From Chlamydiales bacterium (GTDB lineage: Bacteria > Chlamydiota > Chlamydiia > Chlamydiales > JBDQID01): DNA of 64,000 nucleotides. Location of the stretch: contig JBLFWS010000001.1 in NCBI GenBank assembly GCA_047611865.1, positions 1-64,000 on the forward strand, in the 5' to 3' direction. Both the position numbers and the translations under genes were made by a program. Shown here one piece after another: positions 37,179 to 63,014 of the stretch; position 1 is the stretch's first letter; the number at the start of each line of letters is the position of its first letter. The notes under the pieces are model-generated. The model was not told the origin of the DNA, made no database searches, and worked only from the letters and a program-made list of their open reading frames with translations.

Positions 37179-37193
37179 TTTCCCACATAGAAG

Positions 37194-38084: not shown

Positions 38085-38174
38085 CATCTCCTCATAATTT
38101 AATTTAGTATAGTCAACTATAAAAGCAGGTAAGATCGAACAAAGCTTCGATTTCTCCACTGAAAGACCAGAATC

Positions 38175-38384
38175 GGCGTTGTTGCATAACTTAATACGTT
38201 TACAATCATTTATTTAACCACCGAGAGCACAGAGAGATAGAAAAATGCATAAAGTCTCTCAGAATATGCTATCAACTCATCTGTGATTTTTTATTCTCTC
38301 TGTGCCCTCTGTGCCCTCTGTGGTATCGGTGGTAAAATGTTAATCATAAGCCTCTTGTATACGAATGTTTTATGCAACAACACC
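38175..38384. mobile_element. MITE copy 3 (210 bp), inverted near-copy of 14354-14563
   Basis: GGCGTTGTTGCATAA ... TTATGCAACAACACC; flanks ACCAGAATC / ACTAGAATC (9-bp TSD, 1 mismatch). Confidence 0.9.
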
Positions 38385-38391
38385 ACTAGAA

Positions 38392-39964: not shown

Positions 39965-39976
39965 AATTTGTCTCCT

Positions 39977-40975: not shown

Positions 40976-41011
40976 ATCACGACCTTAATAATTTCAAAGT
41001 TACAAAAACCT

Positions 41012-42007: not shown

Positions 42008-42036
42008 TTCACAGGCCCTTCAAGCTACGTTTACCT

Positions 42037-42633: not shown

Positions 42634-42639
42634 CTACAA

Positions 42640-44196: not shown

Positions 44197-44334
44197 ACCT
44201 TAAATCCTTGAATTCTCTGGCGATGGGTATAAGATAGTTCTCTTCTTGATTATGAATAAACCATTTTTTAATAATAGTCCGCAAGTTTTATTCTCAAGTT
44301 TTCTTTATTGTCCACCTTGCTAAGAGAATCATTT

Positions 44335-47397: not shown

Positions 47398-49134
47398 TTA
47401 TGACATAAGCATGTCTGAATGGATTTTGTTGAAGCCATATTTTGATGCAATGGCTAGTGCTGTTTCTCCATTTTCTGTCATCTCATATGGATCGGCCCCT
47501 TTCTCAAGTAAGTAATGGACCATCTTCCTCTGACCATAGCCTGCAGCTGTATGAAGAAGAGACCAGCCTTTATCATCTCTAGTCGATAAAAGGTTTATCC
47601 CATGACCATCAAATAGCTTTATTAATTTCATTGACCCATTTTCTACTGCCGTAAAAATGGGAGATGATATTCCCATTCCAGTAAATGAAGAACGGGGATC
47701 AGCTCCTACTTTAAGGAGCTTTCCGATCATTTCATACTTATCTTCTCGAACAGCCCATTGAAGAGGTGTTAAGCCATTTTTCATGGGCATGTCCGGGTGG
47801 ACTCCGAAATCTTTTAAGCATTCAACAACTTCTTTTCTCTCAAAATTTGCGGCCCCAAACAACAAACCCATTTCGTCTTCTAATGGGCCACCTTTTTCAA
47901 ACAGAAATTTCACAATATCTATGTGGCCCTTTTGCACCGCTACTTCTATCGGTAAAATCATTGTTTCACTGCTACTGTTTATCTTCAAAGGTTCAGCTTC
48001 TTTTTCAAATAAAAGCTGGAGCATCTCTAGGTCCCCTTTATAAGCCGCGCTAAAAATTGGATTTGCCAAGCTAAGCTTACTCGAATTGAGATTCAGAATT
48101 CTTTCTAAAATCTGTCGCTTCTCATCTTTATTTTCCGCTGGACCCTCACTTTTACAAAACTCTTTAAAGCTCAGTGTTAAAAAAGGCTCATTTTTCTTAT
48201 TCAGATTTTTTACGATGTCTTTAGTAAGCAGATCAACACTTAGAGCTTTCTCAGGTTTCTTTGAATTGTTAGGATCATAAAAATAATATGACTCTCCATC
48301 AGAATAAACTCCACAAGCGTGACTGGTCGTCTTTGAGCTCTGTGTTATTTCAATATATTTTTCTTCTCCTGAATCAAGCCTTTCCTCAAAAAATGCCGAT
48401 AGACTCGCATACTCTCCTGATTCATTGGGAGAAAATGGTGCGACAAAATTAAATGATTCATTGCAGCCTTTAATTTCTTCTCTGTCTGAAATAAGCTTTA
48501 GCTTATCAAAGTCCTGAGTCACTCCATTGCTGTCAGGAAACGACTGTAAAAAAATCATCTGGCCTACTAAGTTTTCAATTTCATTTCTCCGATCTTGAGA
48601 AACTTCTGAAATTTCACCATTTGCAATCAACTCAAGATCCTTATAAAAATCCTCAACTCCATTTGTAAGCATATGATAAGCCCACAAACTAGATAGGCCG
48701 TAGCAATGTCCCTGTTCTATATCTGAATAAAGTTTGATTCCTCCCTGTGAATCAAAATGTTTTTTCACGTTATCTAAGAGATTGTCCTGTGAAAAATCAG
48801 TAGGAAGCTCAGTTCTCTCCCATCGCCCGAACCCGTTGTTCACCGAAAAGTCCAATACTTTTATAACAAGATCTTGCTTCTTATGTGCTTCAATTTCTCC
48901 AAAGATCTCATTAATCCTCATTGTAGTCGGATCACTCATAGAGTTCTCAAGCTTCGCCTCAATTGACTCAGCATCGTGACCGGGGCAGTTAACAAAGATA
49001 AAATCTGAAACATCTGCCAGAAAATTCTGAAGCTTTTCACCCTCTGCACTTCCTAGATCCTTGGATTTATCCATAAAATTCAGCCAGTTAGAAACATCCA
49101 TATGGTAAGTAGTTTGAGCTTGTACGCCTGCCAT
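47398..49134 (-). CDS. YopT/C58-like cysteine protease domain plus C-terminal ankyrin repeats
   Basis: GHCYGLSSLW, SHACGV, YFYDPN; ankyrin motifs GLTPLQWAV, GWSLLHTAAGYG, GETALAIA; start at ATG 49134 after AGGAG. Confidence 0.75.
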   Translation of the reverse strand: MAGVQAQTTYHMDVSNWLNFMDKSKDLGSAEGEKLQNFLADVSDFIFVNCPGHDAESIEAKLENSMSDPTTMRINEIFGEIEAHKKQDLVIKVLDFSVNNGFGRWERTELPTDFSQDNLLDNVKKHFDSQGGIKLYSDIEQGHCYGLSSLWAYHMLTNGVEDFYKDLELIANGEISEVSQDRRNEIENLVGQMIFLQSFPDSNGVTQDFDKLKLISDREEIKGCNESFNFVAPFSPNESGEYASLSAFFEERLDSGEEKYIEITQSSKTTSHACGVYSDGESYYFYDPNNSKKPEKALSVDLLTKDIVKNLNKKNEPFLTLSFKEFCKSEGPAENKDEKRQILERILNLNSSKLSLANPIFSAAYKGDLEMLQLLFEKEAEPLKINSSSETMILPIEVAVQKGHIDIVKFLFEKGGPLEDEMGLLFGAANFERKEVVECLKDFGVHPDMPMKNGLTPLQWAVREDKYEMIGKLLKVGADPRSSFTGMGISSPIFTAVENGSMKLIKLFDGHGINLLSTRDDKGWSLLHTAAGYGQRKMVHYLLEKGADPYEMTENGETALAIASKYGFNKIHSDMLMS

Positions 49135-49331
49135 CCCTATTCTCCTTAATAACAATATAACTACAATATTAACATCGCCGAATTAACTATACGTAAAGGC
49201 TTTGTTTAGTTTTGTACAATTTAGACGTAAAACCTTTACAGATTGTTATTAATTACTTAACAAAGTATTCATATTCACCCTGTATAATGTAACTATTATA
49301 GTTAAACCTATATCAAGGGAAATGGAAAGCC

Positions 49332-49984: not shown

Positions 49985-50281
49985 TTATTCGTTCCCCGTG
50001 GAATCCTCTTGCTGATTTACACCGGAAGAGTCTCTTTCTTCAACAACATGCTCATAAAGCTTTGTATTGGCAGCCCTTTCCAGCTCCTGCCAATAGCCAC
50101 GATCCATCCAACCATGGCTGCCATTCCAATAGCTACAAAACCAAAGTATCCCCCAGATGGGAAGAACTACATAAGTGATCTTCAAAAAAGTCGGGATTCC
50201 GACATCATCAAACTCGTCAACCTCATCCTTGCCAAAATGCACAACATGATGTTGCTCCTCGTGTTGATACTCTTCAAACAT
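49985..50281 (-). CDS. CcoP/FixP N-terminal-like membrane anchor with no heme motif
   Basis: HFGKDEVDEFDDVGIPTFLKITYVVLPIWG resembles FixP_N (H.FDGIEEYDNPLP.W); last gene of the cbb3 operon. Confidence 0.6.
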   Translation of the reverse strand: MFEEYQHEEQHHVVHFGKDEVDEFDDVGIPTFLKITYVVLPIWGILWFCSYWNGSHGWMDRGYWQELERAANTKLYEHVVEERDSSGVNQQEDSTGNE

Positions 50282-50492
50282 CGCCCTTCTCCTTTTCACT
50301 TATACTTTCTTCATCCTTCATCATTTGATACTTTGGCTCCTCGTCCATATCCAAACGCCCCTTCCGCCACAAGTAAACGAAAACCAGTAAAGCACTACCC
50401 ACAAAGGCTATTACCATAGAATAGTGCATTACCTCACCACAAACACCACCCCCATCAAGAGGAGTCGAATTAGCAAGCATTTTAAAAGTCAT
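50274..50492 (-). CDS. CcoS/FixS-like small membrane protein
   Basis: TM followed by YLWRKGRLDMDEEPKYQM; exact start uncertain. Confidence 0.6.
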   Translation of the reverse strand: MTFKMLANSTPLDGGGVCGEVMHYSMVIAFVGSALLVFVYLWRKGRLDMDEEPKYQMMKDEESISEKEKGDV

Positions 50493-50505
50493 TTGCACGA
50501 TACGT

Positions 50506-51789
50506 CTATGCCCCCCGGCTCCTGCCTTCAATAATGTCAATCGTACGAACAGGGTCCTTTCCGAGCCACCATGCCTGAGTCGGAGGGGTAATTCTTGTGC
50601 CCTTCGTCATCAAATACTGAAACATCGCCTCAAACTGATAGTTTGGCACCCCAAACGGACTTTTTGAAGTACCCCGAGGGTCTTCATCAAAAAAGTGATG
50701 GAAGGCCGGCATAATAGATCCAGGGCTTTCCGTTTTGGGAGACCAAAAATGTGATTTATGCCAGTCCCGGCTTTGCCGCTTTACCCCAACGCGAGATAAA
50801 TCAGGCCCAATCCGTCTAGTTCCTGGAAAGCTTATATTTTGGTAGATATATTCATTCGGTGAGGATGGAGGAGCAGGAAATGAATCAGAACCATTATGAA
50901 TCGTATCCTGAATTAGTGTACGCGTTTGGTCAGTATGACAATACCAGCATCCTTCCGCAGCAAAGATCCCTTCACCCATCTGAATTAATTCTTTTCGAGA
51001 CAAGAAGCTCAACTTTTCACCTTTCAATTCCTCAAGTCCGTTAATTGAATTTCCATATTTGTCATATTTCCAGCCCTCTTGATTGCCCATCCGAAAATGA
51101 CTAATATGATACTCCTGAGGATTGCTAACGTACAAGACACCTAAGTCTTTGTGATAGTCCTGGCGAACACCCGCATCAATAATTTTGTAGTTCTCATCGA
51201 CCCAGTTTTCTGTAATCCCATCACTGTCATAGATCGCAAACGCTTCTTTCATTCCCGGGTCGTAGAGCTCAAGAATATGAAAAAAAGGCTTACGCTCTCC
51301 TTTGTCTTTCCAGCTAGGATGATGCTGCTCCCAATCAATTTGCAGCTCCTGCTGCAATTTTTCTGCCTCAGTAACTGGGTTATAACTTAGATCTTTCCCA
51401 TTATCCTGAGGATCTCTAAGTAATAGCAAACGAGAACTTAACTTAATTTCTTTCTCTCCCAATTTGGTAATAAAGCGTCTCAATTCTCTTGGGGCCACTA
51501 TTCGAGTAGTTTCTGTCTCTGAAAAATTCAGCAAATCATTATCTTCACGAAGGTGGTATACAGCCTGAATATCCCCACTACCAGTTTGCGCGGTACTAAT
51601 GTAGACGTTCGGGTCTGAGATTTCATACATCTGCTTTTGGTAGACACTGGAAGGCTTTGTCCAGTTTGGATCTACATACCTCGGAGCAATCACTGTCACT
51701 GCTACTGCTGAAGAAAAAAGGAGAACAACTCCAATTACTGTAAGCACGGCAGAGCTCTCTACCTTTCCCATAAATCCATTAGTACTCAT
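50506..51789 (-). CDS. ccoO: cbb3-type cytochrome c oxidase subunit II (CcoO-like) with large insertion
   Basis: N-terminal TM; G..IF.AEGCWYCHTDQTR, GTRRIGPDLSRVG, WH..HF..P....PGSIMP. Confidence 0.85.
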   Translation of the reverse strand: MSTNGFMGKVESSAVLTVIGVVLLFSSAVAVTVIAPRYVDPNWTKPSSVYQKQMYEISDPNVYISTAQTGSGDIQAVYHLREDNDLLNFSETETTRIVAPRELRRFITKLGEKEIKLSSRLLLLRDPQDNGKDLSYNPVTEAEKLQQELQIDWEQHHPSWKDKGERKPFFHILELYDPGMKEAFAIYDSDGITENWVDENYKIIDAGVRQDYHKDLGVLYVSNPQEYHISHFRMGNQEGWKYDKYGNSINGLEELKGEKLSFLSRKELIQMGEGIFAAEGCWYCHTDQTRTLIQDTIHNGSDSFPAPPSSPNEYIYQNISFPGTRRIGPDLSRVGVKRQSRDWHKSHFWSPKTESPGSIMPAFHHFFDEDPRGTSKSPFGVPNYQFEAMFQYLMTKGTRITPPTQAWWLGKDPVRTIDIIEGRSRGA

Positions 51790-53219
51790 GCTTCTCCGCC
51801 AAGATCTGATTTTTTCATATCCTTTTTCGGATCAAGGATAATGGTATTAAACATATTGACTGCAAACAAAATATTACCCAATAAGATAAGAACCCCTGCT
51901 AAGCCTCTCAAAACCCACCAAACTCTGGACATCTCAATAGTTTGCAGAAATGACAACTGACTGATGTTGTTGTGGAATTCAGCGTAGCTACTCCCATTTG
52001 CCCAAGAAGCCCATTGCATTCCCTGCAAGTAACCTCCAATCCACAAAGCACTAAACATCAACAAAGATCCAGCAAGATTTAGAGTAAAGTGCCAATTAGA
52101 AAGTCTTTCAGACCAAATGGGCTTTTTTGTCATCACATGAACAGAGTGATAAACCCCAGCAATAGCAAAGTATGTAAAAGCTCCGTAGAGGGCCATATGT
52201 GCGTGTCCAATAATCCAATCTGTCTTTGACGTTATTTCATTGACGTTACGCAATGATTGTAAGGGTCCCTGTATACATGTTAGGAGATAAAAGAGCGTTC
52301 CCATCATCAAAAAACGGATCGGAGCACTTTGAGTGTACAAACCCCAATGTCCCTTAAGGGTCATGAAAAAGTTTGCAATTACTGTCCAAACTGGAATAAA
52401 TAACCATATAGAGAAAATAATAGCCACTGTTTGGAGCCACTGTGAAATAGGCCCATGAATAATATGGTGGGCACCTACCCATGCGTAAGTCAACGCTATT
52501 GTCCAAAATCCAATCATAGAAAGTCTGTGACTATATATGGGAACCTTAGCAATTCGTGGGAGAAAGTAATATGCCGCAGCAACACCCATGGGTGTAAATA
52601 TTAAGCCCACAAGGTTGTGTACATAGAAAAATGAAGCATTCACTTTTGATATACCCCCTGGAAGAAATTCCAGGCCAAAATTCCCTATTACAAAAGTAAA
52701 AGTCGTCCAGACCAAGGATCCCATCGTATACCAGAGCGATACATACATCTTCTTAAACTTTCTGTCTGCGATGGTCATGAAAATATTCACGGAAAAAGTA
52801 AGCCAAGCTACGGTAAATATAGCTTTTACCGGTATCCACCCACCAAGCATCATAGGAAGCTCTGCATATTCCCAACCATAGTTTGTCCCAAAGGGAAATG
52901 AGTACACTCCCACTACCAAAGAAAACCACCAAAGAGCACAGGTATAGTTCGCAAGTTTTGTGCTCCATAAGGGTGTTCCACAAAGCCTGGGAACGAAAAA
53001 ATATATTAGTCCAGCGTCTACTGATAGAAGCCACAGTAACGTCACATGACCTACATGTACCGGCCTAAGCCGACCAAAGTGAACATACTCACCTCTGAAA
53101 TAATCAGGAAAAACAAAGCCATTAAAAGAAATGAATACACCCATACTCAAGCCTATCACCAAAAAGATGATGGCAGGATAAATCATTTGCTTTGCAGCCC
53201 TGTCATTAAATTCAATCAT
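51786..53219 (-). CDS. ccoN: cbb3-type (family C) heme-copper oxidase subunit I
   Basis: FGRLRPVH, EYAELP, YVHNLVG, YAWVGAHH (helix VII Tyr plus CuB His pair), DWIIGHAH. Confidence 0.9.
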   Translation of the reverse strand: MIEFNDRAAKQMIYPAIIFLVIGLSMGVFISFNGFVFPDYFRGEYVHFGRLRPVHVGHVTLLWLLSVDAGLIYFFVPRLCGTPLWSTKLANYTCALWWFSLVVGVYSFPFGTNYGWEYAELPMMLGGWIPVKAIFTVAWLTFSVNIFMTIADRKFKKMYVSLWYTMGSLVWTTFTFVIGNFGLEFLPGGISKVNASFFYVHNLVGLIFTPMGVAAAYYFLPRIAKVPIYSHRLSMIGFWTIALTYAWVGAHHIIHGPISQWLQTVAIIFSIWLFIPVWTVIANFFMTLKGHWGLYTQSAPIRFLMMGTLFYLLTCIQGPLQSLRNVNEITSKTDWIIGHAHMALYGAFTYFAIAGVYHSVHVMTKKPIWSERLSNWHFTLNLAGSLLMFSALWIGGYLQGMQWASWANGSSYAEFHNNISQLSFLQTIEMSRVWWVLRGLAGVLILLGNILFAVNMFNTIILDPKKDMKKSDLGGEA

Positions 53220-53229
53220 TTGGAACCCC

Positions 53230-56200
53230 TCAAGATCTATCGCTCACAAAAGTCGCAATCTTTTCTTTGTAGTTTTCATATATCTCCGCTTGCTTTGAAC
53301 GAGACTGAGCTGCTAAACGCATCTGTGAAAGCAGTACAGCTTTCATGCCCTTCATTGCTTCAAGCCGCTCTCCAACCTTAGCCAATTCATCACTTCGCTC
53401 AAGAGAGGGTAACTTCCCTCTTAATCTATCCACTTTCCTCTGATTCACATCCACCTGATGATCGAGATCGCGAACAATTTCCTGAGCCTTATTCTGCATA
53501 AAGCGCTCTCGATAAGGATCTTTTTCCATTAGCAAGTCGCCGTTGAGCCTCGTATACCGACCTTTGTTTAAAGCAATGATTTCAAATAATTTCGTGATGA
53601 TTTTTTCATCTGCCTTTTTTGCTATAAATCGCAAGCCAATTTCCGAGTAAAACTTTTGTTCATCGTCGAATTCATCCTTTAAATTCAAGAGAATAGCATC
53701 TACTTCTTTTCGCTTCTTCAAATGATCCATAACTACCAGCTCTTTAGAATAGGACCGAGCAGCTTCTTCTAAAGTAATTGTTCCCTCTTGGGATTTTTCA
53801 TAATTGTCTTGTCTTGCCCGAAGGGCCCGCTTGTATTCCCCCTGCAAAACATTCAGTTTTTTACCTTCAATGTTTCGGGTGTCAGAAATAGCTCTTCCTG
53901 TAGTTTCAAACGCATTAAAAAGAACACTCACCATGTCTTCCCGGTGTTTCTTTTCAACACTCAGACTTCGAATAAACATCACCAACTGAATTCTCTGCAG
54001 TGTATTTGTCTTGTCACCCCACGGGGTCATGGCTGTGCCAGGAACCCCGTATTTAATGGAACGGAGAAGGCGCAAATCATCCCTTGTTTTCAACCAGGGA
54101 AGATTTGTTAGCATGCGGGGCTTGGCCTCCTCCATCGTAGCCGAACGAGGTCCATCTCCAGCTGCTTCCTTTCCATGACAGTGACTACAGTTAGCAAGAA
54201 ACAAGCTCCCACCTTCAGAAATATTTTTCTCTGTATAATACTTCTGCTTTATGAAGAACTCCTTTTCTTCAACTCCCTCAACGGCATCCTTCACATCGAA
54301 AACCTCATCTACTTCCGGGGCTTTCCCTATTTTTTTTTCTTCTGACTTAAAAAACTTTGTGGCTAATAAAAAATTAGGAATAAAGCCTGAGCTCAGTACT
54401 TCACTCATAGAATCATCAACTTTATCTTCTGTCTCACCCTGTAAAACATCTTTTTCTTCATACAGCTCTTTCAAGACATCTTCAGGTGTGTATTTCCATT
54501 TTTCAACATCATTCTCGGACTTAATGACGTGCGCTCCAGGTAAAGACTGAAACAACCAGTCTACAATACGTTCTATTTCTGATTCTTTTAAAAGGGCCGA
54601 GCTATCTCCCAGCTCTGCCGCTGCTGCGGTTTCCCCCCATGGTGGCATGGGGGTGCCCTGAACACCGTGGGTAATTGAATTCACAGCTCTTTCCCGAGTT
54701 AAATTTCTCAAGAAAGTAGCATCTCGAAGATTCTTAGGAATAGGATATATCCATTGAGATACCGTCCCCTTACCGTGAAAATGCTCGCCATGACACTGCA
54801 TACAGTGCCACTCATAAGCCATCGCGGGGTCGAAGCCTCGCTCGTCCCAAATTTCCCGTAAGCTATCTCTATTCTGCTTGCCAAGCACCCGAAGCATATT
54901 TGTCAAAGCATAAAACTTACTTTCATCCAGCGGCATTACAGGCATTATTGATCTTGCTGTATAAGCTGATGGGTTTCGGAAGTGACCTATAAGCCATTCG
55001 TTATCACGATATACACCAGACCAATGCAATCGTGGGGCAATATCTCTACCTAGACCATATTCTTGAATGTACATCATGAACACGCGCTGAACGAGATCTT
55101 TGTAATGTTCATGCTCTTCTAATATTCGGCTTCTTTCAGTAGAGCTTTCCGCTTTTGCGATTAACTGCTCATAATGGTGATTCTTTGCTCTCATTGCATA
55201 TTTGAAAGGGCTATAAAATGAGCTCAAAATCTTTGGAGTCTTTTCCTCAATCTTTTCCAGTATTGAAGACTCACGAACATTTTGAACAATCCGCTTATCA
55301 ATCTCCTGACCCTTTTGGTCAATCATATCGACAATTCGCGAACCAATAAGATCTTCTGGAAACAGCCGGTAGAACCACTGTCGTTCTTTAAATACTTCCT
55401 TAAAAGAAGCCTCTTCTTTCTCTACTCGATAACCAACATTAGACTCAAAACCTTTCAGCCTATGACATGAAGCACAACCCTCATTAGTGTATATGTCCAT
55501 AGCCACTTCCACATCATTCCACTCTGAAACGGGTAGAGGTTTTTCCCAAGCGCGCTTCTTTCCCCCAGCCCACTCCTTGAGAGAAACTTGTGTCAACACT
55601 TCAGAAGTTGTCTTGTCTTCCTTTCTTTGTGCCATCAGAAAGGCTAATAAATCTTCCACTTCCTCATGATCGAGCTTAAAGTTTGGCATTGTTGAAGTTT
55701 TCAAATTCGATTGAGGCCAAACAATTGCCTCTTTGACATACCAAGGATACATCTGTCCAATTTCTGAAAGATCCGGACCCACCTGCCCCCTGGATAAGCC
55801 GCCAATTTTGTGGCAAGCATAACAGGCTGTACTCATGTAAAGCTGCTGTCCTCGAAAGTAACTACCCATTGCATCTTCTGCATCCGACCTTAGGCCATGT
55901 ACTAACTCTTGATCCAATATCGCTGTTTCCAGGGGCGCCTTCACCCTATCCATAAGCTGAATAACCTCACCAGCTTCTTCCATCGCAGCCATTTTAGCAA
56001 AAATACTTCCTGAAATACCCTTTCCATTTGAAACATGTCGAGAGAGAAAACCCAAAAGGGTCTCAGTAGGACTTGAAGCCAACGCTCTGGCTTCTGCCTC
56101 CAACTTTCTCAAATAGATTTCTGAACCCAGAATTTTGGAAATTTCACCATTTATCGCATTTAATACCGCTTCGTCGTCTACATATTTGTCGGTTTTTTGT

Positions 56201-57333
56201 AGGTAGTCCTGAACTCCTGACAAAAGGCTTATTCGAAAAGCAAGAGCTCGCTGCTCCCCTTCACCAAGAGAAATGTCTTGCAATTCCTCACTCATCATCT
56301 CAAGAGTTCTACGGGAGCCTATGTTTTCCAATGAATCTTTTATCTCCAACAAGGCAAATAGCGCCTTTTGGTCGTTAGCAACCCCTTGCCCTATAGCTTC
56401 AGCTTGTTTTTCCTTACGTGTTGTCACAGCTTCAACTGTTGTATACGCCTGTTGAAGCTCTTCTCCACCTGATTGGTGACACTGCGCACACTTTGCCTGC
56501 ATCAATCCGGAAACATAGAGGGGTGTTGTTTGAAAAAGCAGGTGATGTCCCGGCCTGCCATTAAACACTCTGGCCATTGCAGGATCGTTTTCTTCATCAT
56601 TCTCAGTGAAAACTATTTTATGCCCCTCTGAAGACTCTTCATAGGTTCCATCATAAACCGGCCCATGGGCCCTTCCGGATGTAATAGATCGCCCATTACC
56701 ATTGTGACAAACAACACAACCAATTTCATCAGAGGAATGATACTCAAAAGGACGCTCTTCTCTACCAATCAGTGGGTGCATAGCAAGAGCTTTGGTCATA
56801 TCCAGGGAATGCCCATGCTCTTCAATAGATTTCAAATGACTCAGACGTTCAGCCTCATCCAGGCGCCGCTGAATTTCTTCTTCTTCACCATTTTCTCTAA
56901 GCTGTTCTATAAGCTTTTTATCCGTGAGTGACGCTACCTTAGTATCAAGAAGCTTCCATACGTACTCTTCATTTTCGATTTGTACAGGACGGCCATTCTC
57001 TCCGATAATCATGTTGCCATTTATATCATAAGCTATTTTTGTAGGAGAAAAATGACTCAACTTTAAAGCTACATGACATGTGGTACAGCGATCTATAGTT
57101 TCCGGACCTTTGTCTTCCTTGGGGATAACAATCTGTTTAATTCCCAATTTAAAATCAGGGGCCCGTTCACCCGTATGAGTTGAGCGAAATTCCTCAAGAT
57201 CTACATAAGTATTTTGATAGATCTTATATTCGGGAAACATCTCATAGTAGACGAAAACCCCAAATAATAATGCCGATACCACTGATAGAGAAATCAGTAT
57301 TATTTGGTAAATGTCAGCCCGATCAAAACGCAT
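53230..57333 (-). CDS. membrane-anchored multiheme cytochrome c (7 CxxCH)
   Basis: N-terminal TM; CTTCH, CVVCH, CAQCH, CYACH, CASCH, CMQCH, CSHCH. Confidence 0.9.
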   Translation of the reverse strand: MRFDRADIYQIILISLSVVSALLFGVFVYYEMFPEYKIYQNTYVDLEEFRSTHTGERAPDFKLGIKQIVIPKEDKGPETIDRCTTCHVALKLSHFSPTKIAYDINGNMIIGENGRPVQIENEEYVWKLLDTKVASLTDKKLIEQLRENGEEEEIQRRLDEAERLSHLKSIEEHGHSLDMTKALAMHPLIGREERPFEYHSSDEIGCVVCHNGNGRSITSGRAHGPVYDGTYEESSEGHKIVFTENDEENDPAMARVFNGRPGHHLLFQTTPLYVSGLMQAKCAQCHQSGGEELQQAYTTVEAVTTRKEKQAEAIGQGVANDQKALFALLEIKDSLENIGSRRTLEMMSEELQDISLGEGEQRALAFRISLLSGVQDYLQKTDKYVDDEAVLNAINGEISKILGSEIYLRKLEAEARALASSPTETLLGFLSRHVSNGKGISGSIFAKMAAMEEAGEVIQLMDRVKAPLETAILDQELVHGLRSDAEDAMGSYFRGQQLYMSTACYACHKIGGLSRGQVGPDLSEIGQMYPWYVKEAIVWPQSNLKTSTMPNFKLDHEEVEDLLAFLMAQRKEDKTTSEVLTQVSLKEWAGGKKRAWEKPLPVSEWNDVEVAMDIYTNEGCASCHRLKGFESNVGYRVEKEEASFKEVFKERQWFYRLFPEDLIGSRIVDMIDQKGQEIDKRIVQNVRESSILEKIEEKTPKILSSFYSPFKYAMRAKNHHYEQLIAKAESSTERSRILEEHEHYKDLVQRVFMMYIQEYGLGRDIAPRLHWSGVYRDNEWLIGHFRNPSAYTARSIMPVMPLDESKFYALTNMLRVLGKQNRDSLREIWDERGFDPAMAYEWHCMQCHGEHFHGKGTVSQWIYPIPKNLRDATFLRNLTRERAVNSITHGVQGTPMPPWGETAAAAELGDSSALLKESEIERIVDWLFQSLPGAHVIKSENDVEKWKYTPEDVLKELYEEKDVLQGETEDKVDDSMSEVLSSGFIPNFLLATKFFKSEEKKIGKAPEVDEVFDVKDAVEGVEEKEFFIKQKYYTEKNISEGGSLFLANCSHCHGKEAAGDGPRSATMEEAKPRMLTNLPWLKTRDDLRLLRSIKYGVPGTAMTPWGDKTNTLQRIQLVMFIRSLSVEKKHREDMVSVLFNAFETTGRAISDTRNIEGKKLNVLQGEYKRALRARQDNYEKSQEGTITLEEAARSYSKELVVMDHLKKRKEVDAILLNLKDEFDDEQKFYSEIGLRFIAKKADEKIITKLFEIIALNKGRYTRLNGDLLMEKDPYRERFMQNKAQEIVRDLDHQVDVNQRKVDRLRGKLPSLERSDELAKVGERLEAMKGMKAVLLSQMRLAAQSRSKQAEIYENYKEKIATFVSDRS

Positions 57334-57348
57334 TATCGTCTCCCACCA

Positions 57349-58674
57349 TTAGTGTCTTGCAAAGTTCTCCGTCCATGGCCAAATCCATCCCCAGTTTGCC
57401 CCTCTGAAGTACGTTCCAATTATTACCAGGATTCCCTGTGTCGTCATAAAAAACGTGTACAAAAATATCGCCATATATCGGCTGCGGTGATACCACACGC
57501 CTGATCCATAGGGATTTCTATCAAGATAAGGGACTACCATAAGCCCCACAACAATTAACCCTGGTATTCCTACACCACCCCAGAAAGCACTATAAGCAAC
57601 CATCTCTTGAAGACCCAGAAAATACCACGGAGCCTTTGAGGGATTGGGGGGTTTTGTTGCGTTCGCCGCCTCTTCCAATGGTGCATCTATAAATGATAAA
57701 ATCATGATCAAAACTACGGTAAACATAAATGCAATTAACTCGGCACGAAGAAGGTGCGGCCAAGTAAATATGTAGTTATATGGTCCCCTATCAACAGTGG
57801 GACACGTCCCTCTAACAAGCTCCATTAAGCCGTAGGTTCTGCGAACCCCCGGCGCAAAAGTCTCCTTAGTATCCGATCTTTGTACAACACGATAGGGTTC
57901 TGGTGAAACTTTGTCCGGAGGACGCGCCAAGCCACCATCTTTTCTAATACGCCAGAAGTGTACTCCTATTAAAATCCCCGCGGCAAGGGGGAGCACCATC
58001 ACGTGAAGTACGTAAAATCGTATGAGTGCATCTTGTCCAACGCTGGTGGACGCAATAAGCATAATACGGTTAATGTTGTGTTCCATTCCGGGTATTCCCG
58101 GAGCATAGCCAGCAATTTCAGATCCTACAGTTACCGCCCAAAATGCCAGCTGATCCCAAGGAAGAAGGTATCCAGTAAAAGACAGCAGGAGGGTAAGCAC
58201 CATTAGAATCACGCCAATTACCCAGTTAAATCTTCTTTCTCCTTTATAGGAACCCATATAGAAGACACGCGACATATGGAGAAAGACGAACAACACCATC
58301 ATGTGTGCACCCCAGCGGTGCAAATTACGAAACATCTGAGCGAAAGGCGTCACATCCTGCCAGTCTTTCATAATGTCGTAAGCCCTGTCTTCTGCAGGCA
58401 CATAATAAAACATAAGCACCACACCAGTGATCACCAGTGTAATAAACAGGCTCATCGTAATGGAGCCGAGACCCAAAGTCTTGAAAAAATCCGTTGTGCT
58501 TTTGTGACATTTCACCGGGTGAATATGAAGGAAGAAGTTCTTAAAAACAATTTCTGATCGGTCAACATCATTGTTGGGATAACCATGACGAAAGATGGAA
58601 CGTACCACTAGTTTAGGAAGGTTCTCTAGGTACTCCAACCAGGTCTCTCTCTTTTCCCCTTTAAAAACTGCCAT
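57349..58674 (-). CDS. cytochrome b (fused b6 plus subunit IV) of a Rieske/cyt b complex
   Basis: RNLHRWGAH, FLHMSRVF, NWVIG, TGYLLPWDQ, RFYVLH, GVHF; Qo motif KAPWYF. Confidence 0.92.
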   Translation of the reverse strand: MAVFKGEKRETWLEYLENLPKLVVRSIFRHGYPNNDVDRSEIVFKNFFLHIHPVKCHKSTTDFFKTLGLGSITMSLFITLVITGVVLMFYYVPAEDRAYDIMKDWQDVTPFAQMFRNLHRWGAHMMVLFVFLHMSRVFYMGSYKGERRFNWVIGVILMVLTLLLSFTGYLLPWDQLAFWAVTVGSEIAGYAPGIPGMEHNINRIMLIASTSVGQDALIRFYVLHVMVLPLAAGILIGVHFWRIRKDGGLARPPDKVSPEPYRVVQRSDTKETFAPGVRRTYGLMELVRGTCPTVDRGPYNYIFTWPHLLRAELIAFMFTVVLIMILSFIDAPLEEAANATKPPNPSKAPWYFLGLQEMVAYSAFWGGVGIPGLIVVGLMVVPYLDRNPYGSGVWYHRSRYMAIFLYTFFMTTQGILVIIGTYFRGANWGWIWPWTENFARH

Positions 58675-58712
58675 GTGCTTACGCTCTCCTCAAAACATCT
58701 TCATTGTGCTGT

Positions 58713-59228
58713 CTAAACATACCATGCAACCTGTGGATCGTGTATTAGTTTTGTTTTATCTGCCAGAAGTTCTCCTGACGCTCCTTTTGAAACATTAAAA
58801 TATACCAATGGGCTAGGAGCAGGCCCTCCCGTATTAAAGCCATTCCGATCATATGTTGATCCGTGACATGGACATTGATATCCTGTTTCTACAGCGTTAA
58901 CAGTGCAGCCCAAGTGAGTACAAACTGCCGTTTGAACACGTACTTTTCCAGAAACCACCTCAACAAAACACTTGAACTTCTCCAGAAAAACCTTTCCCTC
59001 TGTTGCCAGAACATCCTCTGGCCTTCCAATTGAAAAAACGCTAGGCGGAATTTTCAGAGCGTTAGGGTAAAGAAAACCCATAAGCGCAACACTCACAGCT
59101 CCTCCAACACCCATACACACACCCGTTCCCATCAAGGCAAGAAAAGTCCTTCTTGTAATTTTTGGGTCATTGCTCTTAGGATCCACGTTTAATGAATTTC
59201 GAAACCTAGGCATAACACCCTCCTTCAT
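58713..59228 (-). CDS. Rieske [2Fe-2S] protein
   Basis: Tat motif TRRTFL, CTHLGC, CPCHGS, GPAP.PL. Confidence 0.93.
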   Translation of the reverse strand: MKEGVMPRFRNSLNVDPKSNDPKITRRTFLALMGTGVCMGVGGAVSVALMGFLYPNALKIPPSVFSIGRPEDVLATEGKVFLEKFKCFVEVVSGKVRVQTAVCTHLGCTVNAVETGYQCPCHGSTYDRNGFNTGGPAPSPLVYFNVSKGASGELLADKTKLIHDPQVAWYV

Positions 59229-59368
59229 TCTCCATTTTGTTCCTCATCACGAAACATCTGGTATTTAACATCTTCCAAATCATCGAACTGCCCTTTTTTC
59301 CAAAAATAGACAAAGACTCCAGTCGCCGCTAACCCACCAATTAATGTCGCTGCAAGATATACTACCAC
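59225..59368 (-). CDS. ccoS: CcoS/FixS-like 47-aa membrane protein (absent from the ORF track)
   Basis: GTG start 7 nt after AAGGGG; (M)VVYLAATLIGGLAATGVFVYFWKKGQFDDLEDVKYQMFRDEEQNGE; GQFDDL motif; stop overlaps the Rieske ORF ATG. Confidence 0.8.
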   Translation of the reverse strand: MVVYLAATLIGGLAATGVFVYFWKKGQFDDLEDVKYQMFRDEEQNGE

Positions 59369-59385
59369 TCCATCGCCCCTTCATA

Positions 59386-61218
59386 CTATCCAATCCACCG
59401 AAAAGAGTAATTCATCGTATCCATTGTAACAGCTTGAGTAGGACATTTTTCGGCACACAACCCACAACGTATACAAAGGTCTTCATCTTTCAACATTGCA
59501 GACCCTGCTGTATTAAGTTCTTCAGCTGTCATTTCAGAAGAATCGAATCCATAGTTATTGTCCACAGCTTTACGCATATTGCCCTCTCCCCAATCCAAGT
59601 TCAATTTCGATAAAGGTATCAACGTAAGACAATTTGTAGGGCAAACATCTACACAACCATTACATTTTATACAAAGAGATCCATCAAATACTGGACTTAC
59701 ATGACACTGTAAACAACGACTTGCTTGCTGATGCGCCTCTTCTGCAGTATAAGGATTTTCAACAATATTTAGATTTTTCCGCCTCTCCTCTGCCGGCTGA
59801 AGAGAAGGAAGAGACCATTTTGTACTCAGGTATTCTTTATCTCGCATAGGTGGAATTGTTCTGAACTCTCCAACGAACTCCTGGTAAGGCTTTGTTCCTC
59901 TCAAATCACTGTCAATAGCCCTTGCAGATTCTTGCCCATGACGTATTGCTGTAATGAACAACGCAGGCCCATATCCGGCATCCCCCCCACAATAAATCCC
60001 ATTTACAGATGTTCTACCAGTTCCTCTTTCTACTTTTATAATTCCCCTTTCAAGGGTAAGGTCAGCTTTCTTGTCCCACCCGTCAAAAAGACTCGTATCC
60101 ATTCCCTGGCCGATAGCTAAAGCTATGGTATCACAAGGCACAACATACTCTGTTCCTTCAACAAACTCGGGTGAAAAACCCCCTTTATGATTAAAAAGTC
60201 GAGAGATCTTCTGTACACGCAGCCCAATAATCTTCCCGTCGCTGTCACGTTCCACCGCCTTTGGACCTAGCCTGTTGAGGACCTCAATTCCCTCTTCAAG
60301 CGCATCTTCAATCTCAAATTCATCAGCTGTTTGTTCATCTCGAGATTCCAGGCAAACCAGAGTAACCTTATCAGCTCCATTGCGTATAGAAGACCGCGCC
60401 ACATCGTAAGATACGTTACCCCCACCAACAACGACTATATGATTACCTATTCTCCATTTCCCCCCGCCCGTAATCACCTTAAGATACTCTACGCCTCTGA
60501 TTATGTCTGCCTGGTCTGTTCCGGGAATGGGTAACTCTCGGGACTTCCATAAACCATTGCCGATAAAAATCGCGTCATACTTTTCCTGCATTTCAGTAAT
60601 CGTTATATCTCGGCCAACTTTCGTATTATAGTGGATATTAGCGCCCAAGTATTCTATCGCATAGCATTCGTTGATGATTACATCATTTTTCAGTCTGTAA
60701 TTGGGGACACCATAGGTTAACATCCCCCCTGGCATACTCATCATTTCATAAATATCGACAGAATATCCCAAGCGAAGAAGGTCGTGTGCTGCCGTTAACG
60801 AGGCCACTCCCGCCCCTATGCAACCCACCTTCATTCCATTCGGTTTTGGGTTGGTCGTTCCACGTGAGTAGCTAAATTCCAGAGCTTTAATGTGAGCTTC
60901 CTTATCCACCCCGAACCACTCATCGAGAAAACGTTTTTGTGCACGAATGGTAAGAGTTTTATCTACTCGATCTCTCCGACAGGCTGTTTCACAGGGAGCC
61001 CCGCATATCCATCCACAGATAGACGCGAAAGGATTAGGCCCTCGAGCAATTTTATAACCCTCCAAAAGGTTACCTGCTTGTAACGCAAGCATATACCCTC
61101 GAGCATCTGTATTAACAGGACATCCGTCGCGACAGTCGATTTGTTTCAGATAATAATCTAGATCTGGAATAACAACGTCATAACTATCTTTATAGATATC
61201 AACCAGCTCTTTTGACAC
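59386..61218 (-). CDS. GltD/NfnB/DsrL-like FAD-FeS NAD(P)H oxidoreductase with C-terminal 2x[4Fe-4S] ferredoxin domain
   Basis: CRDGCP..NPFASICGWICGAPCETACRR; GAGVAS; GGGNVSYD; GGDA; CIKCNGCVDVCP; CIRCGLCAEKCP. Confidence 0.88.
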   Translation of the reverse strand: MSKELVDIYKDSYDVVIPDLDYYLKQIDCRDGCPVNTDARGYMLALQAGNLLEGYKIARGPNPFASICGWICGAPCETACRRDRVDKTLTIRAQKRFLDEWFGVDKEAHIKALEFSYSRGTTNPKPNGMKVGCIGAGVASLTAAHDLLRLGYSVDIYEMMSMPGGMLTYGVPNYRLKNDVIINECYAIEYLGANIHYNTKVGRDITITEMQEKYDAIFIGNGLWKSRELPIPGTDQADIIRGVEYLKVITGGGKWRIGNHIVVVGGGNVSYDVARSSIRNGADKVTLVCLESRDEQTADEFEIEDALEEGIEVLNRLGPKAVERDSDGKIIGLRVQKISRLFNHKGGFSPEFVEGTEYVVPCDTIALAIGQGMDTSLFDGWDKKADLTLERGIIKVERGTGRTSVNGIYCGGDAGYGPALFITAIRHGQESARAIDSDLRGTKPYQEFVGEFRTIPPMRDKEYLSTKWSLPSLQPAEERRKNLNIVENPYTAEEAHQQASRCLQCHVSPVFDGSLCIKCNGCVDVCPTNCLTLIPLSKLNLDWGEGNMRKAVDNNYGFDSSEMTAEELNTAGSAMLKDEDLCIRCGLCAEKCPTQAVTMDTMNYSFRWIG

Positions 61219-61436: not shown

Positions 61437-63014
61437 ATGCATCTTGTCATAGTCAACACCAGTTCCAAGGGTGGAAAAGAGTTACAAACCGCTCTACTGC
61501 AGGAATCTTACAAAGATGGGAACGATCTAAAAACACGCACCATTGCCAAGCTCATGGAGTGTACGGAAGATGAGATCCATGCTGTACAGATGGCATTCCA
61601 ACACAAAGACAAAATGCTTAAACTGAACCTTCCTAAACTACCGTCAAATACACACAGCCCTCAAGTTCTTAAACAAAACACTCCCATTGGGGCCGCATGG
61701 GTTGCAAAATCCGTCGCAGAATACTTAGGTATCGCTGATGCCCTTGGCACAACAAAGCCTGGTAAATTAGCCCTGCTCCAAATTTTGTCTCATGTTGTTG
61801 AACCCACCCTATACCCCCTTTCCAGGTTTGCTGAACAAACTCATTATTTAATTAACTCTCTTGACCTCCCCATCGACATTGATGCAAAAGACCTTCACAG
61901 AGACCTGACATGGTTATCGAAAAACAAGTCCAAAATAGAAAAGAGAATATTCAAGTTTCGCACCAAGGGGGTTTCTGACCGCCTTTTCTTTTACAATATC
62001 TCCAGCCCATACCTCTCCACCCGCCTGAACCCTCTTGAAATTTTTGAACGAAACCTAGATCAAAGTCACTTCCCGGGGCTGGGTCTTCTATGTGATCAAG
62101 AAGGCTACCCCGTATCCATTTGCCTACCTAATCCAGAGAAAAACCAAACAGTGCTTGATAATGCTCTAAAATTAGCCAAAGACTACTCCGTAGATTCTGT
62201 TACAGTTGTACGTCATAACTCCAGCTCTATGGAAAAAGATAACATCCCTCAGGTTGCAAACTATCTTTCACATGTCACCTCTCCCGAAGACATAGCGTTC
62301 CTCAAAGCACACATACTCCTGGATAAAGTTGAAGACCTTAGTCTCACAAAAAGAAACGACCACAAACACTTTCTTATCAAAAGGGACCCAAAGCGCTCGA
62401 AAATTCTTAAAGAAATGCGCGAAGACCAGCTCAAGCATGCTGAACTACTCATCAATAAAGCTAACGAAAAGCTTAAAGAACAACCCACATCTTCAACAAC
62501 AATTTTACAAAGCCTCCAGAGGGCCATCGAAAACATTGGAGGCTCTGAATGGCTTAAGGTACAAGAGTCTGATGTGGGGTTTATCCATGAAGTCAACCAG
62601 GAAAAGCTCAATGAATTTTCCACCTTAGACGGCTGTCAGATTTTGGAATCCAACCTCCCTTTTAGCGGCACTTCACCAGAAATCCTTTTGGATCGCTTTA
62701 AAAACCAAAAACTTATCGAAGAAGCCTTTCGTAACCACAGCCCTGGTTTCCACGACCTCGAGCTTGCCGATAGCCTCTTAGAAAGCACCCTTCGAGGACA
62801 CTCCTTGTTGCTAATGCTCGCCTTTCTCATTAACCGCACCCTCGGAAAGGCCTGGTCTCCCTTGGGCGTTACTCCCGAGGAGGGATTAAGGGAGCTTTCT
62901 GGTATCTGTTCAATGAATATCGGAAACAAAACCTACATAACAGAGCCCAACAAAGCCACCCAGCAACTTCTTGAAGCCTTAAACCTTAAACTACCCACTC
63001 AGACAGACTTATGA
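61437..63014 (+). CDS. IS1634-family transposase-derived protein with substituted DDE residues
   Basis: LLQESYKDG..KTRTIAKL, GLLCDQEGYPV, LDGC.ILESNL, IEEAFR, LRGH.LLLMLAFL, QQLLEALNLKLP; frame intact. Confidence 0.7.
   Translation: MHLVIVNTSSKGGKELQTALLQESYKDGNDLKTRTIAKLMECTEDEIHAVQMAFQHKDKMLKLNLPKLPSNTHSPQVLKQNTPIGAAWVAKSVAEYLGIADALGTTKPGKLALLQILSHVVEPTLYPLSRFAEQTHYLINSLDLPIDIDAKDLHRDLTWLSKNKSKIEKRIFKFRTKGVSDRLFFYNISSPYLSTRLNPLEIFERNLDQSHFPGLGLLCDQEGYPVSICLPNPEKNQTVLDNALKLAKDYSVDSVTVVRHNSSSMEKDNIPQVANYLSHVTSPEDIAFLKAHILLDKVEDLSLTKRNDHKHFLIKRDPKRSKILKEMREDQLKHAELLINKANEKLKEQPTSSTTILQSLQRAIENIGGSEWLKVQESDVGFIHEVNQEKLNEFSTLDGCQILESNLPFSGTSPEILLDRFKNQKLIEEAFRNHSPGFHDLELADSLLESTLRGHSLLLMLAFLINRTLGKAWSPLGVTPEEGLRELSGICSMNIGNKTYITEPNKATQQLLEALNLKLPTQTDL

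What the first reader, a model, noticed from the sequence alone, without database searches (positions are those of the whole stretch)
49985..61218. Single operon wiring an NAD(P)H flavo-FeS enzyme to Rieske/cyt b, a 7-heme cytochrome and a cbb3 oxidase
Seen: nine tightly packed or overlapping minus-strand genes, in order: GltD/NfnB-like oxidoreductase with extra ferredoxin domain, ccoS-like, Rieske, cyt b, 1367-aa heptaheme cyt c, ccoN, ccoO, second ccoS-like, CcoP N-terminal fragment. Knowledge: Rieske/cyt b clusters with an NAD(P) oxidoreductase and multiheme cyt c are described in anammox bacteria, where coupling of quinol oxidation to NAD(P) reduction was proposed. cbb3 oxidases are high-affinity O2 reductases. 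Inference: a complex III-IV supercomplex with a cytoplasmic NAD(P)(H) module, allowing microoxic respiration or bifurcation-driven NAD(P)H production in a chlamydia.
Basis: partly seen in the sequence, partly recalled or inferred. Interest (0 to 1): 0.78.

Follow-up and report, generated by a model that had tools for sequence, protein, structure and literature searches.

The report
NAD-linked quinol-to-oxygen respiratory operon in chlamydiae
Nine tightly packed genes, shared by many environmental chlamydiae, encode a quinol-oxidising Rieske/cytochrome b complex, a seven-haem cytochrome, a cbb3-type oxidase and an iron-sulfur flavoprotein predicted to use NAD; they likely form an oxygen-breathing cousin of a puzzling anammox complex that would send one electron to oxygen and possibly the other to NAD.

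Summary
Observation confirmed. Nine minus-strand genes (61218 to 49985, gaps -35 to +38 nt) encode a flavin/4Fe-4S protein, CcoS, Rieske, fused b6-like cytochrome b, a seven-CxxCH cytochrome, CcoN, CcoO and two small membrane proteins. Cytochrome b, flavoprotein and ccoN co-occur in 83 of about 400 Chlamydiota genomes. The flavoprotein lies beside cytochrome b in 74 of 80 GTDB loci, so the refutation test was not met. This is a subfamily-G/group-A2 Rieske/cyt b complex, kin of Kuenenia Kuste4569-4574 and Kustd1480-1485; published trees already place Waddlia and Parachlamydia there. It keeps the histidine proposed to bind an extra haem (His50 = His43/His62). It differs in three ways. Its flavoprotein has CLE, not the NADP-binding YRR, so NAD(H) is likely. 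Its cytochrome b is fused and lacks the haem-cn cysteine. Its sink is a cbb3 oxidase whose CcoP role likely passed to the heptahaem plus a stub. Most likely mechanism: menaquinol bifurcation to O2 and NAD+, with NADH recycled by Na+-NQR or complex I (0.45). Rival: NADH feeding the complex (0.3). Binding and direction are untested. The scan has found this operon before in seven other genomes. New variant of a known kind.

The parts
59386..61218 (-). 610-aa GltD/NfnB/Bfu-like FAD-4Fe-4S flavoprotein with a C-terminal 2x[4Fe-4S] ferredoxin domain; NAD(H)-type CLE motif at 289-291; Lys95 where NfnB-like proteins have the fourth ligand position of the FAD-proximal cluster
   Evidence: no transmembrane segment
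59225..59368 (-). CcoS/FixS-like cbb3 maturation peptide, 47 aa; stays with ccoN when the Rieske/cyt b block is lost
   Evidence: Pfam FixS 27.1 bits, cut-off 23.1
58713..59228 (-). Rieske [2Fe-2S] protein with twin-arginine signal/anchor; Ser124 and Tyr126 predict a high potential
   Evidence: (best PDB hits 9rk3 and 9rk4, the Kuenenia Rieske proteins)
57349..58674 (-). 441-aa b6-like cytochrome b fused to subunit IV; haem ligands H119, H133, H224, H239; P-WY quinol-oxidation motif at 349-351; invariant His50; no haem-cn cysteine (Gly68)
53230..57333 (-). 1367-aa N-terminally anchored seven-haem cytochrome c: three N-terminal haems plus four class-I-like haem domains with conserved Met (549, 797, 896, 1102), the last two CcoP-like; about twice the size of the ~600-aa non-chlamydial orthologues because of insertions
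51786..53219 (-). CcoN, catalytic subunit of a C-type (cbb3) haem-copper oxidase; H55, H201, H251, H252, H339, H341 and cross-link Tyr245 all kept
   Evidence: (36 of 36 rows)
50506..51789 (-). CcoO monohaem subunit with a chlamydia-specific insertion of about 220 aa (about residues 44-262)
50274..50540 (-). second CcoS-like (or CcoQ-position) single-helix peptide; true start likely ATG at 50492 or 50480
   Evidence: similar to the first ccoS-like ORF; orthologues L019 and L025 hit FixS; conserved position
49985..50299 (-). haem-free membrane stub resembling the N-terminus of CcoP (FixP_N); true start likely ATG at 50281
   Evidence: orthologue L005 passes the FixP_N cut-off, L004 and L013 weak, window copy and 9 other orthologues no FixP_N hit; conserved position

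Best explanation
The operon encodes a Rieske/cytochrome b complex, a seven-haem cytochrome, a cbb3-type oxidase and a flavin/iron-sulfur protein predicted to use NAD(H), which likely work as one menaquinol-to-oxygen chain that would send one quinol electron to O2 and the other to NAD+. Shown in the sequence: an intact quinol-oxidation motif, four b-haem histidines, a Ser/Tyr Rieske, seven haem-c motifs, a complete CcoN site, four FeS-cluster ligand sets, CLE in place of YRR, and no haem-cn cysteine. Inferred steps: (1) menaquinol is oxidised at the P-side site; (2) the high-potential electron runs Rieske, heptahaem (standing in for cytochrome c1/f and for the haems of CcoP), CcoO, CcoN, O2; (3) the low-potential electron crosses by the two b haems and, with haem cn gone, leaves through a haem held by His50 of both cytochrome b monomers to the flavoprotein's ferredoxin clusters, FAD and NAD+; (4) NADH returns its electrons to menaquinone through Na+-NQR (or complex I), so the quinone-reducing half of the Q-cycle is outsourced to an ion pump. 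The overall architecture I hold at about 0.8; the direction towards NAD+ is the uncertain part and sets the confidence below.
For: Linkage: flavoprotein beside cytochrome b in 74 of 80 GTDB loci, the other 6 cut by contig or locus ends. It moves from the front of the operon to behind ccoO in 10 loci (9 acidobacterial, 1 titled Bacillota) yet stays in it. Of 10 chlamydial genomes with ccoN but no cytochrome b hit, 5 keep ccoS-ccoN-ccoO and the small genes while flavoprotein, Rieske, cytochrome b and heptahaem are gone together (G055 with remnants, G095, G216, G311, G373). G156 keeps only heptahaem plus oxidase, G109 only ccoN, G366 is decaying, and G335 and G395 are cut by contig ends. Residue equivalence to the anammox complexes in G535, whose numbering matches Hauser et al.: His50 = His43/His62, Arg244 = Arg247/Arg266, Lys245 = Lys267, flavoprotein Lys95 = the buried lysine, Lys591 = Arg550 (paper read whole). 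Energetics: the genome has menB and menD. A Ser/Tyr Rieske correlates with 300-350 mV and is unusual with menaquinone (PMC3509893, passages). The Kuenenia homologues measure +303 and +335 mV, which by the paper's symmetry argument allows b haems low enough to reduce NAD(P)+. Rieske Ser is kept in 74 of 74 rows. The haem-cn cysteine is absent and the second glycine of the CxGG motif is replaced, weakening a b6f-type quinone-reducing site. An ion-pumping NADH dehydrogenase is present in G000 (nqrA) and in 79 of 80 operon-bearing genomes tested (nqrF 72, NuoD-type 47). Support genes are present: two CcsB-like proteins and TatC.
Against: No experiment on any member of this fused clade was found. 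His50 is kept in 105 of 105 subfamily-G cytochromes b, including 19 of 20 hand-picked split-type loci with no flavoprotein beside them. Four of five such genomes tested have no full-length flavoprotein orthologue. So His50 is not a mark of the flavoprotein link. Kuste4570 Arg511 aligns to Gly521. Glu312 (72 of 81) and Arg244 (81 of 81) of the N-side pocket are kept, so quinone reduction there is not excluded. Haloarchaea pair a high-potential Rieske with menaquinone in aerobic respiration. The Rieske Tyr is Phe in 45 of 74 rows. A heterotrophic symbiont has little need to make NADH, and the electron must cross against the membrane potential (own knowledge). Nqr is near-universal in chlamydiae, and I ran no control on genomes without the operon, so 79 of 80 is weak. 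The CLE/no-Cys/fused pattern may be one inherited event.
Confidence: 0.45

Rival explanations
1. Same complex, opposite direction: the flavoprotein oxidises NADH and feeds electrons through the His50 haem and haem bN to menaquinone at the N side, like FNR on b6f or a built-in type-II NADH dehydrogenase. The unit is then a self-contained NADH-to-O2 chain for microoxic respiration or O2 scavenging.
For: An NAD(H)-type motif in heterotrophs (CLE or a related E-bearing motif in 70 of 70 fused-type loci with a flavoprotein), whereas NADP-type YRR is in the anammox autotrophs. The reaction is downhill. Glu312 and Arg244 are kept. The DsrL homologues run both ways in vitro (PMC7596348, passages). G000 has no complex I hit.
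Against: It wastes about 250 mV per electron, the objection raised by Hauser et al.. 79 of 80 operon-bearing genomes already have Nqr or a NuoD-type gene. It does not explain the high-potential Rieske with menaquinone. Haem cn is missing.
Confidence: 0.3
2. An ordinary Q-cycle complex III plus cbb3 oxidase. The flavoprotein is only co-transcribed and works apart, as an NAD(H):ferredoxin-type oxidoreductase or redox valve under low oxygen.
For: Many split subfamily-G complexes have no flavoprotein beside them (19 of 20 hand-picked loci). The flavoprotein has no membrane helix. G366 keeps it intact while cytochrome b is lost.
Against: Adjacency in 74 of 80 loci across many phyla, surviving rearrangement. 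Loss as a block with Rieske and cytochrome b. Co-migration of the Kuenenia subunits is reported in Hauser et al. citing de Almeida 2016. No flavoprotein-only chlamydial genome other than the decaying G366.
Confidence: 0.17
3. The terminal enzyme is not mainly an O2 reductase but an NO reductase-like sink, in line with the nitrite/NO coupling proposed for anammox.
For: The anammox relatives are proposed to couple to nitrite reduction. A paper title in a reference list reports NO reductase activity for a cbb3 oxidase.
Against: CcoN keeps the cross-link tyrosine and all six histidines in 36 of 36 rows and aligns over its length with P. stutzeri CcoN. Best models are ccoN and ccoO. No octahaem HAO-like gene lies in the operon.
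Confidence: 0.05

Closest known systems
Kuenenia stuttgartiensis Rieske/cyt b complexes Kuste4569-4574 and Kustd1480-1485 (Hauser et al., 10.1101/2025.06.25.661457, whole main text read)
   Same: Rieske + b6-like cytochrome b + subunit IV + multihaem cytochrome c + cytoplasmic FAD/FeS oxidoreductase; P-WY motif; His43/His62 = His50; Arg247/Arg266 = Arg244; buried lysine at the FAD-proximal cluster; cytochrome b 47-50% and flavoprotein 31-32% identical
   Different: Anammox: split cytochrome b with CMGG haem-cn motif, YRR (NADP-type) flavoprotein, 6- or 8-haem cytochrome, HAO-like octahaem or unknown sink. Here: fused cytochrome b without the cysteine, CLE (NAD-type), 7-haem cytochrome, cbb3 oxidase
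Cytochrome b subfamily G (Dibrova et al. 2017, PMC5600118; passages, section 6, supplement 3 part 2 and supplement searches) = group A2 (Baymann et al. 2012, PMC3509893; passages)
   Same: Waddlia wcw_1967, Parachlamydia PUV_26680, Estrella and Rubidus cytochromes b are listed there with GLGx and P-WY, next to Solibacter Acid_3505, DAMO_0768 and the Kuenenia proteins; co-occurrence with NAD(P)-binding FeS oxidoreductases is noted
   Different: The text I saw does not describe the cbb3 coupling, the CcoP stub or the NAD versus NADP switch; the operon drawings in Figs 2 and S1 are pictures I could not see and may show the gene string
cbb3 oxidase CcoNOQP (P. stutzeri 3mk7) and bc1-cbb3 supercomplexes (8smr, 6xkw, 9g83)
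   Same: CcoN site intact, CcoO monohaem, CcoS-like factor
   Different: No dihaem CcoP gene; a haem-free stub plus CcoP-like domains in the heptahaem; CcoO with a ~220-aa insertion; partner is a b6-like menaquinol complex, not bc1
DsrL / NfnB / BfuA flavoproteins (PMC7596348, passages; PDB 9bov, 8oh5, 9n5u, 4ylf)
   Same: N-terminal two-cluster domain, FAD, NAD(P) domain, linker CxxC, C-terminal 2x[4Fe-4S] as in DsrL; E 3e-82 to 1e-68
   Different: Partner is cytochrome b, not DsrAB or NfnA; lacks YRR like the NAD-using DsrL-1
Chlamydial respiratory chain reconstruction (Dharamshi et al. 2023, PMC9816063; passages)
   Same: Reports PetBD and cbb3 CcoO/N in chlamydial ancestors, PetBD lost in Chlamydiaceae; matches 0 of 29-30 in family f4 here, which I take to be Chlamydiaceae from its 1.0-1.3 Mb genomes
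   Different: Treats them as separate complexes; no mention of the shared operon, flavoprotein or heptahaem in the passages seen

Membership tests
Rieske/cytochrome b complex, subfamily G (group A2) | four b-haem histidines, b6-type spacing, Rieske gene adjacent | tested here: met
   H119, H133, H224, H239 in 81 of 81 rows; best PDB hits cytochrome b6
Rieske/cytochrome b complex, subfamily G (group A2) | P-WY quinol-oxidation motif and placement with subfamily-G sequences | tested here: met
   P349-W350-Y351 in 76 of 81 rows, 5 split rows lack that part; orthologue wcw_1967 listed in G; Waddlia locus L007 79% identical
Anammox NAD(P)-linked Rieske/cyt b complexes | FAD/FeS oxidoreductase gene in the operon, same cluster ligands and buried lysine | tested here: met
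Anammox NAD(P)-linked Rieske/cyt b complexes | dimer-interface histidine for the proposed extra b haem, with Arg/Lys near its propionates | tested here: met
   His50, Arg244, Lys245 align to His43/His62, Arg247/Arg266, Lys267; haem binding itself untested
Anammox NAD(P)-linked Rieske/cyt b complexes | split cytochrome b with CxGG haem-cn motif | tested here: not met
   fused; GLGS at 68-71 against CMGG
Anammox NAD(P)-linked Rieske/cyt b complexes | YRR NADP-binding motif in the flavoprotein | tested here: not met
   CLE in 13 of 13 chlamydial rows; YRR in all 5 anammox-type loci
Anammox NAD(P)-linked Rieske/cyt b complexes | flavoprotein is a physical subunit; NAD(P)+ reduction | not testable with these tools
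   needs complexome profiling and activity assays
cbb3-type (C-family) oxygen reductase | CcoN with six histidine ligands and helix-VII cross-link tyrosine | tested here: met
   36 of 36 rows; alignment to 3mk7; TIGR00780 score 264.7 is under its 583 equivalog cut-off
cbb3-type (C-family) oxygen reductase | monohaem CcoO | tested here: met
   FixO over cut-off; CxxCH at 281 and Met360 invariant in 20 of 20 rows
cbb3-type (C-family) oxygen reductase | dihaem CcoP subunit | tested here: not met
   no stand-alone dihaem CcoP found in G000: PF13442 hits are the heptahaem and two small ORFs; multihaem ORF scan found 3 ORFs; genome 95.5% complete
Complex III-IV supercomplex | stable physical association of the two complexes | not testable with these tools
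   inferred from one operon and a membrane-anchored haem wire only

The most novel reading that the evidence does not exclude
A widespread aerobic respiratory unit in which quinol-based bifurcation reduces NAD+ while the other electron goes to O2. A Rieske/cytochrome b dimer without haem cn passes its low-potential electron through a fifth, inter-monomer b haem to an NAD-specific flavoprotein, and Na+-NQR closes the loop. This is an 'extended Q-cycle' never measured in any organism, and here it sits in cultivable aerobes and microaerophiles instead of slow-growing anammox bacteria.
Probability: 0.35. Interest if true: 0.85.

Novelty: new variant of a known kind. Interest (0 to 1): 0.52.

Why it matters
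The role of the NAD(P) oxidoreductase on anammox Rieske/cyt b complexes has been open since about 2011-2013 and is still argued from models. This variant strips the problem down. It has no haem cn, an NAD-type flavoprotein and a defined O2 sink in one operon, and it is present in Waddlia (L007) and in Pontiella and acidobacterial genomes. That makes both the direction of electron flow and the proposed fifth b haem directly testable. It also shows that about a fifth of sampled chlamydial genomes carry a more elaborate microoxic respiratory chain than 'PetBD plus CcoNO' annotations imply, and that it is being lost in blocks in several lineages.

Tried and rejected
Complex prediction of the cytochrome b dimer (residues 25-436) with the flavoprotein ferredoxin domain (480-610), no haems: no answer, scores 0.18 and 0.07 against a mark of 0.32; no evidence either way. 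Search for RNA runs: no RNA holder listed. Promoter/terminator scan: uninformative. AlphaFold2 model of CcoO: the insertion is confident and beta-rich, but the haem domain is poorly modelled (pLDDT under 50 at 284-334), and Foldseek gave no PDB match at E<=0.001; VIA-align libraries were not tried. Cytochrome b tree (56 of 105 rows, hand-picked): chlamydial (7 rows), non-chlamydial cbb3-linked (11) and anammox-type (5) groups each form one side of a supported branch, but the backbone is open, so no donor or order of events is claimed. Rejected: NADP(H) specificity (no YRR); haem cn (no cysteine); His50 as proof of the flavoprotein link (kept where no flavoprotein is adjacent); a futalosine menaquinone route in G000 (PF02621 not found; men genes found instead); a quinone-free NADH-to-Rieske wire (would dissipate the membrane potential; own reasoning). 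Papers I wanted but could not open: Dibrova et al. 2013. Kartal 2013, ten Brink 2013, de Almeida 2016 and Versantvoort 2019 were seen only as citations; my recollection that the Methylomirabilis complexome showed an NADH dehydrogenase-bc1 unit is unverified.

Full report
Observation. Library scans name seven of them directly: FAD/4Fe-4S oxidoreductase with a C-terminal ferredoxin domain, FixS, Rieske, cytochrome b, multihaem cytochrome c with seven CxxCH, CcoN and CcoO. The last two have no relevant hit in the window copy. Among orthologues, 2 of 8 hit FixS and 3 of 12 hit FixP_N, one each over the cut-off. Each gene is single-copy in the 95.5%-complete genome G000. Upstream lie 218 nt and a divergent IS1634-like transposase; downstream a convergent ORF ends at 49979.

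Distribution. The top 13 (77-88% identity) are chlamydial, among them Waddlia chondrophila, and have the same gene order as far as their contigs reach, except L003, where ccoN lies on another contig. In these 80 loci the flavoprotein is upstream in 64 and behind ccoO in 10; the 6 without it are cut short. ccoN is present in 27. Kiritimatiellales/Pontiella loci share the chlamydial order; acidobacterial loci put the flavoprotein last. In an even sample of about 400 Chlamydiota genomes, cytochrome b matched 88 (86 orthologues after dropping two 37-38% hits), the flavoprotein 85 and ccoN 95. 84 have cytochrome b and flavoprotein and 83 all three; no genome shows another order on one contig. Family f4 (1.0-1.3 Mb genomes) had none.

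Losses are modular. Of the 10 genomes with ccoN but no cytochrome b hit, five keep ccoS-ccoN-ccoO and the small genes without flavoprotein, Rieske, cytochrome b or heptahaem; G055 still shows remnants. G156 keeps heptahaem plus oxidase, G109 only ccoN, G366 has flavoprotein and Rieske but no cytochrome b and a truncated heptahaem, and two are cut by contig ends. This ties the flavoprotein to the Rieske/cyt b block, the first ccoS to the oxidase, and the heptahaem to both.

Cytochrome b. It is b6-like and fused to subunit IV. The four haem histidines, His50, Arg244 and Lys245 are kept in 81 of 81 rows, and the P-WY motif in all 76 fused rows. The haem-cn cysteine position is Gly68 (Cys in 5 of 81 rows, all split proteins), and the second glycine of CxGG is Ser71. 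I fetched two anammox-type genomes. The G535 loci reproduce the residue numbers in Hauser et al. (Rieske S127/Y129 and S114/F116; cytochrome b H43/R247 and H62/R266/K267). Direct alignment gives His50 = His43/His62, the ligand of the extra b haem that their AlphaFold3 models predict between the monomers. Against over-reading this: His50 is kept in 105 of 105 rows, including 19 of 20 hand-picked split-type loci with no flavoprotein within about 6 kb, and four of five such genomes lack a full-length orthologue.

Flavoprotein. Its best solved relatives are Bfu/Nfn/GltD proteins. All cluster cysteines of the ferredoxin domain, Lys95 and Arg584 are kept in 68 of 68 rows with at least 90% coverage. 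Lys95 matches the buried lysine of the anammox proteins and Lys591 matches Arg550, but Arg511 of Kuste4570 aligns to Gly521. At the position of the NADP-binding YRR motif (PMC7596348, passages) the window protein has CLE. Across 105 rows, all 70 fused, cysteine-free cytochromes b with a flavoprotein have the E-bearing motif, while 8 of the 9 split, CxGG-type ones with a flavoprotein have YRR, the anammox loci among them. Kin are not independent, so this may be one event, but it means NAD(H), not NADP(H), is the likely cofactor here.

High-potential side. The Rieske protein's best PDB hits are the two Kuenenia proteins. It has the twin-arginine motif and Ser124 in 74 of 74 rows and Tyr126 in 29. 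The heptahaem is a ~600-aa protein elsewhere, expanded in chlamydiae by insertions; four haem domains keep a methionine and the last two are CcoP-like. CcoN keeps all six histidines and the cross-link tyrosine in 36 of 36 rows. CcoO has a chlamydia-only insertion of about 220 residues with no solved relative found. No dihaem CcoP was found in G000, so the stub likely supplies CcoP's membrane part and the heptahaem its haems (inference).

Genomic setting. G000 has menB and menD, Na+-NQR (nqrA lies in this window), cytochrome bd, two CcsB-like proteins and TatC. Complex I, the futalosine marker and a second haem-copper oxidase were not found. Of 80 of the 85 other operon-bearing genomes, 72 have nqrF, 47 a NuoD-type gene and 79 at least one; there was no control set.

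Mechanism. A Ser/Tyr Rieske (300-350 mV by correlation) with menaquinone is an unusual pair (PMC3509893). Hauser et al. measured +303 and +335 mV for the anammox homologues and argue that bP could lie near -475 mV and bN near -345 to -315 mV, enough for NAD(P)+. With O2 as sink, haem cn gone and an NAD-type flavoprotein, the reading I favour is bifurcation to O2 and NAD+, with NADH recycled by an ion-pumping dehydrogenase (0.45). The reverse, NADH feeding menaquinone through the same wire, is downhill and suits a heterotroph, but wastes energy and duplicates Nqr (0.3). An unattached flavoprotein (0.17) and an NO sink (0.05) are less likely. Everything beyond residues and gene order is inferred; no member of this fused clade was found to have been assayed.

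What is known. Baymann 2012 puts Waddlia and Parachlamydia in group A2 with Kuenenia 1 and 2 (passages). Dibrova 2017 lists them in subfamily G with GLGx and P-WY and notes that G-type cytochromes b co-occur with NAD(P)-binding FeS oxidoreductases (passages, section 6, supplement 3 part 2, supplement searches). Dharamshi 2023 reconstructs PetBD and CcoO/N in chlamydial ancestors as separate complexes (passages). The Pontiella paper mentions ccoNOP without any Rieske gene (passages). The Ignavibacterium and Nitrospina papers (passages) and a complexome review (passages) added nothing on this operon. Full-text searches (search listings) turned up no description of the joined flavoprotein-Rieske/b-heptahaem-cbb3 operon or of the NAD/NADP switch. 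Subscription papers and the operon pictures in Dibrova's figures were not visible and may show the gene string; the bioRxiv supplement of Hauser et al. was closed. Earlier notes of this scan report the same operon in seven other genomes; they are not independent support.

Verdict. Real, intact, conserved and widespread: a new variant of a known kind. The parts and the family are published. The O2-coupled, NAD-type, cn-free form is under-described and makes an open bioenergetic question testable. Interest 0.52.

Noticed in passing
window 50506-51789 (CcoO residues about 44-262): Chlamydia-specific insertion of about 220 aa in CcoO, present in all 16 chlamydial rows and none of 4 others; AlphaFold2 folds it confidently as a beta-rich domain with no PDB match at E<=0.001. 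Function unexplained.
   Followed up: partly
G000:C185:227-1033 and 1056-1370 (L117): A second seven-CxxCH cytochrome of the paired-CXXCH type (Pfam PF09699) beside a small ORF hitting PF13442, on a 39% GC contig; resembles DmsE/MtrA-type periplasmic wires (label recalled) and is unexpected in a chlamydia.
   Followed up: partly
G000:C30:22830-23180 (L118): Small monohaem class-I cytochrome c with a signal-like N-terminus; a candidate donor for cbb3.
   Followed up: no
L083-L092 (G055, G095, G109, G156, G216, G311, G366, G373): Stepwise loss of the operon in several chlamydial lineages; those keeping only ccoS-ccoN-ccoO and small genes raise the question of what reduces their oxidase.
   Followed up: partly
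window 61437-63014: IS1634-family transposase-like gene (96.6 bits, cut-off 100) divergent from the operon, 218 nt upstream, followed by sfsA.
   Followed up: no
window 22820-32549: Four tandem ~810-aa paralogues with a C-terminal glycosyltransferase-like domain, one with a sulfotransferase hit, beside a nucleotide-sugar/heptose cluster at 32651-45330.
   Followed up: no
window 47398-49155: 585-aa protein with C-terminal ankyrin repeats and a near-cut-off peptidase C58 hit; looks like a secreted host-interaction protein.
   Followed up: no
window 14915-16291: nqrA of the Na+-translocating NADH:quinone reductase lies in the same window.
   Followed up: yes
window 57349-58674, residue 56; window 51786-53219, residue 197: Cys56 is found in all 14 chlamydial cytochromes b and no other row of 81; CcoN has Phe where P. 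stutzeri has the conserved Trp203 (Phe in 12 of 36 rows). Meaning unknown.
   Followed up: no
L110 (G684:C4:266000-279000): A split subfamily-G Rieske/cyt b cluster follows a molybdopterin oxidoreductase, FeS subunit and nitrate-reductase-delta chaperone instead of the flavoprotein.
   Followed up: no
G199:C155: A second, distant copy of cytochrome b (46%) and flavoprotein (42%) in one chlamydial genome; second system or binning contamination.
   Followed up: no
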